Assembly (NCBI GenBank): GCA_030264375.1 | Contig: JASCQW010000132.1 | Location: forward strand, 70,999,478 to 71,063,477 | DNA from: Carcharhinus longimanus | Lineage: Eukaryota | DNA length: 64,000 nt | Direction: 5' to 3' | In this document: one piece after another, positions 33,001 through 36,000 of the stretch | Layout: every line of letters begins with the position of its first letter | Numbering within the stretch: position 1 is the first letter of the stretch | Made by a program: the position numbers

Positions 33001-36000
33001 TCCCAAAACTGAAAAAAAACCTTTAAAATGTAAACCATTAAACTAGCTAATTATGACAAGACAAAATATTTGCTCAATGTCTCTGTCATTTCCCATTATT
33101 AATTCCCAATCTCACTCCCTAAGGGATCAGTGCTCACTTTAACTACTCTTCCTTTTAATGTACACGTAGAAGCTTGTAGAATCATAGAATCCCTGAAGTG
33201 CAGAAGAAGGCTATTCAAGCCTTCTCCGATGACAATCCCACCGAGGCCCTATCCCCATAATCCCTCATATTTACCTTGATAAACCCTCCTGACACTAAGG
33301 GGCAATTTAGTGTGTCCAATCAACATAACCCACATGTCTTTGGAGTGTGGGAGGAAACTGGAGCACTTGTAGGAAACCCATGCCGACATGGGGGGAATGT
33401 GCAAATTCCACACAGGTAGGTACCCAAGACTGGAATTGAACCCGGGTCCCTGGTGCCATAATGCAGCAGTGCTAACCACTGTGCCATATTGCTGCCCTGT
33501 CAGTTTTTATATTTTTTTGGTTTTCTCTCTTGATCCAGTTTTCTCTTTGTGATTATTTTTTTGTCATCCTTTAATGGTTTCTAAAGTTTTCCCAATTTTC
33601 TGGGCTACCATTTATCTTTGAAGCATTGAATATCTTTTCTTTCATCTTGGTACCATCCTTAATTTCCTTCGTTAAACATGGATGATGCATCCTTCTCATA
33701 GAAACCTTCTTTCCCAATGAAATATGACTTTGTTCAGAGCTATAAAATATCTTCTTAAATCTCTGCCAAAACTTCTCTATCATCATATTAACTGGAAAAT
33801 ACTAGTTTCAGACCCACATTTCTCACCACCAAACTGAAAGTGAAATTCTATTATGTCATAATCACTTTTACCTAGGACAGGATTTTCCAGCCATGGAATC
33901 CTTATGACCTCCCAAGAGTACTGACAGAACCTTTGAGAAACATTTTCATTACATTGAAGAGTTAAAGCACAAAAAGAATTGATTTGAACAATTGCGGAGG
34001 TGATGGCCTAGTGGTATTATTGCTAGACAATTAATCCAGAAACTCAGCTAACGTTCTAGGGACCTGGGTTCAAATCCCCCTCCAGCAACTGGTAGAATTT
34101 GGATTAAATAAAAAGAAATCTGGAATTATAAGTCTACTGATGACCATGAAATCATTATCCATTGTCAGAAAACCACATCTAGTTCACTAATGTCCTTTCG
34201 GAAAGGAAATCTGCCGTTCTTACTTGGACTGGCCTACGTGTAATTCCAGAGCTACAGCAATTTGGTTGACTTTCAAGTCCCCTCAAATGGCCTAGCAAGC
34301 CAGTTGTATCAATCGCTACAAAGAAATCAAACCAGACAGACCACCTGGCATCGACCTAGGCACCGGAAAAGATAACAGAAAGCAAACAACCCTGTTGACA
34401 TTGCAAAGTCCTCCTTACCAACATCTGGGGGCTAGTGCCAAAATTAGGAGAGCTGTCTCACAGACTAGTCAAACAAGAGCCTGACGTAGTCATTCTCATG
34501 AAATCATGCTTTACAGATAACACTCCAGCCACCACCAATACCATCCCTGGATATGTCCTGTTCCACTGGCAGGACAGACCCAGCAGAGGTGGCAGCACAG
34601 TGGCATACAATCAGAAGGCAGTTGCCCAGAGAGTCCTTAACATTGGCTATGGGCCACATGAAGTCTCATGGCTTCATGTTAAAAATAGGAAAGGAAACCT
34701 CTTAAAGGTTACAACGTACCATCGTCCTTTGGCTGATGAATCAGTATTCCTCCATGTTGAACAATACTTGGAGGAAGCACTGAGGGTGGCAAGGATGCAA
34801 AATATACTCTGGATGGGGGTTTTCAATGTCCACCACCAAGTGTGGCTCGGCAGCAGCACTAATGATCGAGTTGGTTGGTCCTAAGGGGTATAACTGCTAG
34901 ACTGGGCTTGGACCAGAAAGTCAGGTGGATTCGCCACATAAACACAATAGCTACAAGAGCAGGTCAGAGGCTAGGAATACTGCAGCGAGTAACTCACTTC
35001 CTGACTTCCCAAAGCCTATCCAGCATCTACAAGGCACAAGTCAGGAGTGTGATGGAATACTCCCCACTTGCCTGATGGGTGCAGCCCCAACAATACTGAA
35101 GAAACTTGACACGATCCAGGATAAAGCAGCCCACTTGATTGGCATCACATCTACAAACATCCATTCCCTCCACCTCTGCACTCAGTAACAGCAGTGTGAA
35201 CTATCTACAAAATGCACTGCAGAAATTTATCAAAGATCCTTAGATAGCACCGTCCAAGCCCTTGGCCGCTTCATAAGAACATAAGAAATAGGAGCAGGAG
35301 TAGGCCATCCAGCCCTTCGAGCCTGCCCCGCCATTCAGTAAGATCANNNNNNNNNNNNNNNNNNNNNNNNNNNNNNNNNNNNNNNNNNNNNNNNNNNNNN
35401 NNNNNNNNNNNNNNNNNNNNNNNNNNNNNNNNNNNNNNNNNNNNNNAGATCATGGCTGATCTGTCGTGGCTCAGTTCCACATTCCCGCCCTCTCCCCATA
35501 ACCCTTAATCCCCTCGCTTATCTAGAAGGACAAGGGCAGCAGACAAATGGGAACACCGCCACCTGCAAGTTCACCTCCAAACCACTCACTACACTGACTT
35601 GGAAATATATCACTATTTCTTCACAGTCTCTGGGTCAAAATCCTGGAACACCCTCCCAAGCGGCATTGTGAGTCAACCCACACCACATGGATTGCAGCAA
35701 TTCAAGAAGGCCGCTCACCACCACCTCTCAAGGGCAACTAGGGATGGGTAAGAAATGCTGGCCAGCCAGTGATGCTTAAGTCCCACAAATGAATAAAAAA
35801 AATTGGTGCAAATGTACAAAAAGAAATTTATTAAAGTGTTTTCCATTTCACATATTCATCATTTATTATAATTGAAACATTTTCTTATTTAACAAAGTAT
35901 TGAATTCTTCTTTATGCCATTTTTACTTGGAGGAGTGACTTTACTTCTTTTGCACACAAATTAATATTAAGAGTGCTGCTGAAGAGCTGGATTATTGTGT

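What the first reader, a model, noticed from the sequence alone, without database searches (positions are those of the whole stretch)
33994..35802. LINE with a tRNA-like Pol III head and no ORF1, whose two ends also exist as a SINE
Seen: the element starts with A box TGGCCTAGTGG (34004) and B box GGTTCAAATCC (34067). About 400 nt from the 5' end it enters the first APE endonuclease motif (KVLLTNIWGL), leaving no room for ORF1. The SINE at 51275-51667 is this ~310-nt head joined to the last ~75 nt of the same LINE; further pieces lie at 8094, 27625, 42025 and 62835. Established: SINEs usually share only a 3' tail with their partner LINE, and LINEs normally use Pol II 5' UTR promoters. Inference: either an autonomous LINE captured a SINE head and may be Pol III-driven, or the SINE is a deletion derivative of it. 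This could be a visible SINE-birth intermediate. Bipartite SINEs have been described, so novelty is unproven.
[Added by the scan's program, not by the reader: the finding's places include an assembly gap (unread letters, written N; its length is only estimated) at 35347 to 35446. Whether the letters on both sides are continuous or in frame is not known: test that first.]
Basis: partly seen in the sequence, partly recalled or inferred. Interest (0 to 1): 0.75.

Follow-up and report, generated by a model that had tools for sequence, protein, structure and literature searches.

The report
LINE family with a SINE-type head
This is a dead, internally deleted copy of a LINE retrotransposon whose front end matches the front of an abundant SINE in the same DNA, so the SINE looks like the LINE with its coding middle removed.

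Summary
The element at 33994-35802 starts with A/B-box motifs and reaches the APE endonuclease motif KVLLTNIWGL 411 nt in. Its first ~310 nt and last ~75 nt together make up the SINE at 51276-51667 (80% and 85% identity).

The head-to-endonuclease link is not a one-locus accident:
- No SINE tail lies between head and endonuclease.
- A second LINE copy in the window (27850-25558, minus strand) also has the head upstream on the same strand.
- Five predicted protein fragments from other loci (P0003, P0004, P0017, P0040, P0126) read from head sequence through the linker into the endonuclease.

This copy is not autonomous. The reverse-transcriptase region is deleted, the frames hold stops, and an unrelated repeat is nested in it. 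The N gap lies inside that nested repeat.

ARAGORN and Rfam do not recognise the head as a tRNA. Pol III transcription of the LINE is untested, and T-run depletion is not significant.

Still open: whether the SINE arose from the LINE by deletion, or the LINE captured a SINE head. No eukaryotic DNA collection or repeat library was available for a genome-wide census.

I rate it a new variant of a known kind (bipartite LINE-derived SINEs), interest 0.6.

The parts
33996..34078 (+). A/B-box (Pol III type 2 promoter-like) head of LINE copy A. The 5' end lies within a few nt of the 5' end of the SINE at 51276 and of copy B.
   Evidence: no tRNA called
34079..34313 (+). Body shared with the SINE. Similarity to the SINE ends at about 34302-34313, where the SINE continues into the tail.
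34290..34292 (+). ATG that is also the predicted start of P0004 and P0126; a candidate ORF2 start. A second candidate lies at about 34322 (ATC here; Met in P0030, P0096, P0011).
   Evidence: the true start is not resolved
34314..34398 (+). LINE-specific linker (end of the 5' UTR or N-terminal extension of ORF2). Unique in the window but present in protein fragments from other loci.
34399..34884 (+). APE-type endonuclease fragment, 161 aa open frame, preceded by an in-frame TGA.
34885..34905 (+). Internal deletion junction: the endonuclease C-part is joined to the post-RT region of ORF2, and about 590 aa including the RT are missing.
   Evidence: P0022 residues 10-169, then 761-822
34901..35261 (+). 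C-terminal (post-RT) region of ORF2, with stops.
35262..35520 (+). Nested unrelated repeat 'F' that contains the N gap 35347-35446.
35521..35802 (+). LINE 3' region. The last ~75-80 nt (35722-35802) is the tail shared with the SINE and has a predicted hairpin.
51276..51667 (+). Full-length SINE: head plus body joined to the LINE tail.
27624..27850 (-). Head of LINE copy B (matches 34001-34251).
27469..27623 (-). 'F' repeat that lies between the head and the endonuclease part of copy B.
25558..27467 (-). LINE copy B: endonuclease C-part (from the equivalent of 34777), RT and post-RT region. It lacks the equivalent of 34251-34777, and its 3' end is cut by another repeat.
39866..40305 (+). LINE copy C, 5'-truncated (region N-terminal to the RT). 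It continues at 44481.
44481..45709 (+). LINE copy C: RT to 3' end.
41534..42342 (-). LINE copy D (3' part), split by the SINE at 42021-42200.
42021..42200 (+). 5'-truncated SINE copy.
8096..8293 (-). 5'-truncated SINE copy with the same body-to-tail join.
62857..62954 (-). Tail fragment.

Best explanation
The locus is a decayed, internally deleted copy of a single-ORF, APE-endonuclease LINE family of the CR1/L2 kind (clade not assigned). The 5' untranslated region of this family is the same ~300-nt sequence as the A/B-box head plus body of the abundant SINE in this genome. The SINE equals that 5' region, up to ~20 nt past a conserved ATG, joined to the last ~75-80 nt of the LINE. LINE and SINE are therefore two size classes of one element, with the same 5' end and the same 3' tail. 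Shown: the shared ends, the absence of ORF1 and of a SINE tail at the junction, and the recurrence of the junction at other loci. Inferred: the SINE is transcribed by Pol III from the A/B boxes and copied in trans by the LINE protein, which recognises the shared tail (the established model for stringent-type LINE/SINE pairs). Also inferred: the two are linked by one event. Either an internal deletion of a head-bearing LINE gave the SINE, possibly at a short TCAA match seen by eye at both break points, or one template switch put a SINE head on the LINE. How the long form is transcribed is unknown.
For: Shared ends: 33996-34302 matches 51276-51586 (80%) and 35728-35802 matches 51593-51667 (85%). 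There is no tail sequence between head and endonuclease. In the window, 2 of 4 copies of this LINE family reach the endonuclease (A and B), and both have the head upstream on the same strand. The other 2 (C, D) are 5'-truncated. Copy B also holds RT sequence. Outside the window, I examined 36 family-level protein fragments. Eleven of them reach the 5' end of the endonuclease or lie upstream of it. Five of those carry head sequence followed by linker and/or endonuclease: P0017 (34200-34313, then 34411-), P0040 (34176-34331, then 34690-; its N-terminus does not map to this window), P0003 (34187-34216, then 34405-), and P0004 and P0126 (from the ATG at 34290 through the junction). Four start inside the linker (P0011, P0030, P0096, P0127). 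None shows an ORF1 or another repeated 5' sequence. All are <=71% identical to the window, so they come from other copies. Distant full-length relatives have the endonuclease motif 2-25 residues after their Met. This fits an ORF2 start inside 34290-34400.
Against: No DNA of other copies could be fetched, so the junction count rests on 5 short predicted proteins of unnamed origin and on one rearranged in-window copy. Those proteins all share one source label, may come from one genome, and may contain predicted introns. Only copies A and B show the A/B-box part itself attached to LINE sequence. P0017's N-terminus resembles the B-box region only by eye. Copy B lacks the equivalent of 34251-34777 and has an unrelated repeat there, so it does not show the exact junction. 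Two of the 11 informative proteins have upstream residues that do not match the element. P0001 is fused to a host domain (Pfam PF06534). P0082 has 57 upstream residues that remain unexplained. The head is not recognised as a tRNA, and its fold is no better than shuffles in 2 of 3 copies. No intact ORF2 of this family was found. A possible 5-bp target duplication (AATTG) around the whole element is weak.
Confidence: 0.7

Rival explanations
1. The master LINE has only the body (about 34079-34300) as its 5' UTR and lacks the A/B-box part. The SINE is tRNA-like head plus LINE 5' UTR plus LINE tail, as in Bov-tA. Head-bearing LINE copies are then sporadic dead-end recombinants, made by template switching or recombination between SINE and LINE RNA/DNA inside the shared body.
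For: This is the published model for bipartite SINEs (Kojima 2018, PMC5786205, Introduction and Discussion read). Recombination inside a shared region leaves no visible junction, so it fits everything seen at 34302-34313. The protein evidence documents the body-linker-endonuclease link, not the A/B-box part.
Against: Both in-window LINE copies that keep a 5' region (2 of 2) carry the A/B-box part and begin within a few nt of the SINE's 5' end. No LINE copy starting at the body was seen, but n is tiny.
Confidence: 0.2
2. Chance juxtaposition at this locus: a SINE landed just upstream of a 5'-truncated LINE, or the reverse.
For: SINEs and LINE fragments of these families are dense in the window: at least 5 SINE pieces and 4 LINE copies in 64 kb.
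Against: An inserted SINE would bring its ~75-nt tail, and none lies between 34302 and 34399. A LINE inserted into a SINE would leave the SINE tail after 35802, and none is there. The same linkage recurs in copy B and in 5 proteins from other loci. With about 5 heads in 64 kb on two strands, I roughly estimate the chance of a head within 200 nt upstream on the same strand at under 1% per LINE.
Confidence: 0.03
3. Head-bearing copies belong only to a non-autonomous lineage of 'long SINEs' or mini-LINEs. These would carry pieces of ORF2 and be copied in trans by a separate autonomous LINE with an ordinary 5' UTR, and possibly an ORF1.
For: Copy A is such a mini-element: head, endonuclease N-part, post-RT part and tail. 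The junction-spanning proteins all end inside the endonuclease, so they cannot show whether RT followed.
Against: Copy B combines the head with RT and post-RT sequence. P0015 and P0056 show that the family continues from endonuclease into RT, but their 5' ends are not covered.
Confidence: 0.07

Closest known systems
Bov-tA / Bov-A2 with Bov-B, and other RTE- or Vingi-derived bipartite SINEs (Kojima 2018, PMC5786205; Okada and Hamada 1997 as cited there)
   Same: The SINE is made of the partner LINE's 5' part plus its 3' end, behind a Pol III head. A deletion derivative of a LINE is the source of the SINE body.
   Different: In those cases the small-RNA head sits on the SINE only and is thought to be added to an already deleted LINE. 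Here the head is also on LINE copies. Kojima 2018 found only RTE and Vingi 5' parts in SINE bodies (abstract). This LINE's nearest full-length relatives look CR1/L2-like, but I did not assign a clade.
Bipartite non-autonomous LINEs (RIME/Ingi, NARTc/L1Tc, Vingi derivatives, R2 deletion derivatives), as reviewed in Kojima 2018
   Same: Short elements that keep only the 5' and 3' ends of the parent LINE after an internal deletion.
   Different: Those are thought to use the LINE's Pol II promoter or ribozyme. Here the shared 5' end carries A/B boxes.
HE1 SINE / HER1 LINE of sharks and rays (V-SINE superfamily), and SacSINE1 (Deu-SINE) with an L2-2_CM-type tail. Sources: table in Ohshima 2013, PMC3747384, passages seen; Luchetti 2017, PMC5499810, section 7 read
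   Same: A tRNA-type SINE of about 300-450 nt that shares a conserved 3' tail with a CR1/L2-like LINE in cartilaginous fishes. This is the likely neighbourhood if the window comes from such a fish (my guess, not tested).
   Different: No reference sequence was available, so identity with HE1/HER1 or SacSINE1 is untested. As far as I recall, those reports describe a shared tail only. I could not read Ogiwara 1999/2002 (PMC155270 is not held).
U6-L1 and other small-RNA/LINE chimeric retrocopies made by template switching (cited in Kojima 2015, PMC4494074; passages seen)
   Same: A Pol III transcript sequence fused upstream of LINE sequence. This is a possible way for a LINE to acquire a head.
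   Different: Those are one-off copies with variable junctions, in which the whole small RNA is joined to a truncated L1. Here one junction recurs across loci, and the SINE's own tail is absent from it.

Membership tests
APE-type non-LTR retrotransposon (LINE), CR1/L2 group | N-terminal apurinic/apyrimidinic-type endonuclease domain | tested here: met
   The 161-aa frame 34399-34884 hits endonuclease-plus-RT proteins at E 1e-11 to 1e-16. Those proteins carry Exo_endo_phos, Exo_endo_phos_2 and RVT_1. Its own Pfam hit is below cut-off (E 0.008).
APE-type non-LTR retrotransposon (LINE), CR1/L2 group | Reverse transcriptase domain in the same ORF | tested here: not met
   RT is absent from this copy: the endonuclease is joined to the post-RT region at about 34885-34905. 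RT is present in family copies B (26766-25871) and C (39866-40305, 44481-45215).
APE-type non-LTR retrotransposon (LINE), CR1/L2 group | Clade placement by RT phylogeny against named references | not testable with these tools
   No named LINE references or repeat library were at hand.
APE-type non-LTR retrotransposon (LINE), CR1/L2 group | Conserved 3' stem-loop plus short-repeat or A-rich end recognised by its own RT | tested here: inconclusive
   The consensus fold of 7 tails gives 16 pairs, and only 1 pair has a compensatory change. The ends read ...GAATGAATAAA(A)n.
tRNA-derived SINE (SINE2) | Internal A and B boxes near the 5' end | tested here: met
   34004-34077 and 51284-51357 match the pattern, against 0 matches in 100 shuffles. 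The box consensus itself is recalled.
tRNA-derived SINE (SINE2) | Recognisable homology to a tRNA, or a cloverleaf fold | tested here: inconclusive
   ARAGORN finds 0 tRNAs in the window. Rfam finds no tRNA at E<=10 on 2 heads, but it also misses a control SINE head. The fold z-score is -2.1 for one head and +0.3 to +0.4 for the other two.
tRNA-derived SINE (SINE2) | Short, non-coding, with a 3' tail shared with a partner LINE | tested here: met
   51276-51667 is 392 nt, and its tail is 85% identical to the LINE end. This holds for the SINE, not for the 1.8-kb element of the finding.
Bipartite LINE-derived SINE / non-autonomous LINE | The 5' part equals the partner LINE's 5' region and the 3' part equals its 3' end | tested here: met
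   for copy A. The link of the 5' part to LINE coding sequence is supported at other loci.
Bipartite LINE-derived SINE / non-autonomous LINE | The same deletion junction in the SINE copies | tested here: inconclusive
   3 in-window SINE copies cover the join. 51276 and 8096 show the same body-to-tail join, while 42021 has extra tail-like sequence at the join.
V-SINE (HE1) or Deu-SINE (SacSINE1) | Presence of the conserved V or Deu central domain | not testable with these tools
   No reference sequences were available, and I did not use recalled sequence.
Pol III transcription unit (for the long form) | No T4+ terminator inside the unit, and evidence of transcription | tested here: inconclusive
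   There are 4 T4+ runs in 5,457 nt of LINE sense strand (4 decayed copies), against 6.4 +/- 2.3 in dinucleotide shuffles; 22% of shuffles had as few. Transcription is not testable here.

The most novel reading that the evidence does not exclude
An autonomous CR1/L2-type LINE lineage propagates with a SINE-type A/B-box head as its own 5' end and promoter (Pol III or TFIIIC dependent). Its partner SINE arose from it in a single step, by deletion of the ORF. That would be SINE birth without a separate head-addition event, and a LINE-derived origin for the SINE body outside the RTE and Vingi clades.
Probability: 0.2. Interest if true: 0.85.

Novelty: new variant of a known kind. Interest (0 to 1): 0.6.

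Why it matters
The origin of SINE bodies, and the way a new SINE is assembled, are open questions. Kojima 2018 states that the origins of the widely conserved bodies are unknown, and that only RTE and Vingi LINEs were found to donate 5' parts. A LINE family that itself carries the Pol III-type head would show that head, body and tail can pre-exist on one long element. One deletion would then make a SINE. Read the other way, a LINE could renew its promoter by capturing a SINE head. It would also raise a testable question: can a multi-kilobase, protein-coding retrotransposon be driven from, or depend on, a type 2 Pol III promoter? If curated repeat libraries already hold this 5' end, the finding is only a well-documented example.

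Tried and rejected
- Chance juxtaposition is rejected (see rivals).
- tRNA identity of the head: ARAGORN, Rfam at gathering score and at E<=10, and single-sequence folds gave nothing usable. A control SINE head was also missed.
- Pol III terminator scarcity: against mononucleotide shuffles the LINE sense strand looked depleted (4 versus ~10.5). Against dinucleotide shuffles it is not, so I dropped it as evidence.
- Full-length relatives of the family: the 'longer' protein search gave 1 hit, a host-gene fusion. The representative search gave no long protein above ~34% identity. Two further searches with junction-spanning fragments added only P0126 and P0127.
- Target-site duplications: only a 5-bp AATTG around copy A, and none convincing around the SINE at 51276.
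- LINE-specific diagnostic positions in the heads of A and B versus the SINE heads: none seen by eye.
- Literature: 9 lexical searches found no paper describing a LINE with a tRNA or SINE head. These searches match words only and miss subscription journals, Repbase Reports and Dfam.
Supplementary files, which could hold consensus sequences bearing on the family's 5' end, are closed and I did not ask for them. No structure or complex prediction was needed.
- In one search I left out one hit of 46% identity (P0095), because its sequence looked like a different LINE family.
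Full report
**What is at the coordinates**

The element 33994-35802 (+) reads, from 5' to 3':
- An A/B-box head: TGGCCTAGTGG at 34004 and GGTTCAAATCC at 34067.
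- A body running to about 34302-34313.
- An 85-95-nt linker.
- An open 161-aa endonuclease frame, 34399-34884, starting HCKVLLTNIWGL.
- A direct jump to the post-RT part of ORF2, 34901-35261.
- A nested foreign repeat ('F'), 35262-35520.
- The LINE 3' region, 35521-35802.

The combined A...B pattern occurs 4 times in the window and 0 times in 100 shuffles. Two hits are this family and two are another SINE family. The endonuclease frame finds full-length proteins such as P0022, P0024 and P0031. Pfam shows these to be endonuclease plus reverse transcriptase. Its own Pfam hit is sub-threshold.

**The gap, tested first**

The N run 35347-35446 lies inside the nested F repeat.
- Both flanks match other F copies in the window on the same strand.
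- LINE copy C runs uninterrupted across the insertion point.
- The gap therefore affects neither the head, the junction, the endonuclease nor the tail, and no reading frame depends on it.
- I did not fill it.

**The SINE**

51276-51667 equals 33996-34302 (80% over 311 nt) plus 35728-35802 (85% over 75 nt). Other SINE pieces lie at 8096-8293 (-), 42021-42200 (+) and 62857-62954 (-). The piece at 27624-27850 (-) turned out to be the head of another LINE copy.

**Is the head-to-endonuclease link more than a local accident?**

Four lines of evidence say yes.

1. No SINE tail lies between head and endonuclease, and none follows 35802. Neither order of nested insertion fits.
2. The window holds four copies of this LINE family.
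   - C (39866-40305 plus 44481-45709) and D (42342-41534) are 5'-truncated.
   - The two that reach the endonuclease, A and B, both have the head upstream on the same strand (2 of 2).
   - B runs on the minus strand: head 27850-27624, an F repeat 27623-27469, the endonuclease C-part from 27467, RT 26766-25871, and post-RT to 25558.
   - B lacks the equivalent of 34251-34777. It therefore supports the linkage and the presence of RT behind a head, but not the exact junction.
3. The exhaustive protein search with the endonuclease frame gave 124 hits. I took the 33 with at least 45% identity, leaving out P0095 (46%) as a different-looking family. Adding P0001, P0126 and P0127 made 36, which I mapped onto 33994-34900.
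   - Eleven reach the start of the endonuclease or lie upstream of it.
   - Five of the eleven carry head sequence and then linker and/or endonuclease:
     - P0017: 34200-34313, then 34411-34587.
     - P0040: 34176-34331, then 34690-34875.
     - P0003: 34187-34216, then 34405-34686.
     - P0004 and P0126: both start at the ATG equivalent to 34290 and read across the junction.
   - Four start inside the linker (P0011, P0030, P0096, P0127).
   - Two have unmatched upstream residues. P0001 is fused to a host domain. P0082 remains unexplained.
   - None shows an ORF1 or a different repeated 5' sequence.
   - All are at most 71% identical to the window, and they differ from one another, so they are other copies. 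The N-terminal part of P0040 does not map to this window.
4. A, B and the SINE at 51276 begin to be alike at the same point, GGAGG/GGAAA about 8 nt before the A box.

**Limits of that evidence**

- The proteins are short gene predictions of unnamed origin, all with one source label. They may include predicted introns, and they document the body-linker-endonuclease link rather than the A/B-box part.
- P0017's N-terminus resembles the B-box region only by eye.

**State of this copy**

It is not autonomous.
- About 590 residues, including the RT, are missing between the endonuclease and the post-RT region.
- A TGA directly precedes the endonuclease frame, and further stops and frame shifts follow.
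- F is nested in the 3' part.
- Whether the internal deletion happened before or after insertion is unknown.

**ORF2 start**

- Distant full-length relatives begin 2-25 residues before the endonuclease motif.
- Family fragments share ATGs at the equivalents of 34290 (P0004, P0126, and the window) and of about 34322 (P0030, P0096, P0011; ATC in the window).
- Each copy has its own indels, so the true start is unresolved.
- Either way the 5' untranslated region is about 300 nt and is the SINE's head plus body, and there is no room for ORF1. Single-ORF LINEs are not unusual in themselves (recalled).

**tRNA likeness and Pol III**

- ARAGORN and Rfam do not call a tRNA in either head. Rfam also misses a classic-looking head of the other SINE family, so this negative is weak.
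- The fold is better than shuffles for one of three heads.
- T4+ runs on the LINE sense strand number 4 in 5,457 nt, against 6.4 +/- 2.3 in dinucleotide shuffles. This is not significant. The apparent depletion against mononucleotide shuffles is a composition effect.
- Pol III drive of the long form therefore remains a hypothesis.

**Tail**

The shared last 75-80 nt can form a hairpin in 7 copies, but only 1 of 16 pairs shows a compensatory change.

**Mechanism**

Most likely, LINE and SINE are two size classes of one element. Established for such pairs: the SINE is made by Pol III from its internal boxes and is copied by the LINE's protein, which binds the common tail.

Two origins fit the data, and each needs a single event:
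- One internal deletion of a head-bearing LINE gave the SINE. Both break points carry a short TCAA, seen by eye.
- One template switch placed a SINE head on a LINE.

A third possibility cannot be excluded with two DNA copies: the master LINE has only the body, and head-bearing copies are sporadic recombinants within the shared body.

**Comparison with the literature**

- Kojima 2018 (PMC5786205; abstract, Introduction and Discussion read) reviews SINEs built from LINE 5' and 3' parts. It found only RTE and Vingi LINEs as donors of 5' parts. It proposes that a head is added to an already deleted, Pol II-driven bipartite LINE. It also notes that Pol II signals may conflict with Pol III.
- The present family would differ in two ways: the LINE kind, and the head sitting on the long form.
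- Shark SINE/LINE pairs known from the table in Ohshima 2013 (passages) and from Luchetti 2017 (section 7) are described as sharing tails.
- Ogiwara 1999/2002 could not be read, and what I say of them is recalled.
- Nine lexical searches found no description of a LINE with a tRNA or SINE head. That is weak evidence of absence, since curated repeat libraries and many journals are outside the library.

**Verdict**

The finding is best filed as a new variant of the known bipartite LINE/SINE relationship. Interest is 0.6, pending a genome-wide census.

Noticed in passing
window 31786-31847 (+) and 33432-33486 (-): A second, different SINE family with a classic-looking A/B-box head (TGGCACAGTGG...GGTTCGATTCC type). 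It shares no body with the family studied here, and Rfam does not call it a tRNA either.
   Followed up: partly
window 35262-35520, 27469-27623 (-), 37818-37906, 61846-61980, 59281-59424 (-), 43758-43879 (-), 22278-22384 (-), 17465-17541 and others: A short repeat ('F', about 150 nt or more, starting CATAAGA...) with at least 12 copies or fragments in 64 kb. It is nested in both head-bearing LINE copies in the LINE's orientation, and in copy A it is flanked by a likely 8-bp target duplication. Its family is unknown.
   Followed up: partly
window 35347-35446 and 37907-38006: Two of the eight N gaps abut or interrupt copies of the F repeat, and another (24657-24756) abuts a different repeat. The assembly gaps seem to fall in interspersed repeats.
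   Followed up: no
window 25421-25555 (-), 32019-32124, 27965-28069, 24614-24656: Another interspersed repeat (82-84% between copies) that cuts off the 3' part of LINE copy B.
   Followed up: no
window 5178-5519 and 15572-15754: Reverse-transcriptase-like stretches of other, more distant LINE families (23-36% to the same full-length relatives).
   Followed up: no
window 36030-36200: A (CA)n microsatellite and CA/CT-rich low-complexity DNA about 230 nt downstream of the element.
   Followed up: no
LINE sense strands of copies A-D (5,457 nt): Strong strand asymmetry of homopolymer runs: T4+ at 0.73 per kb against A4+ at 5.9 per kb, with a window background of about 5.8 per kb for each. Dinucleotide content explains it, so it is not by itself evidence of selection against Pol III terminators.
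   Followed up: yes
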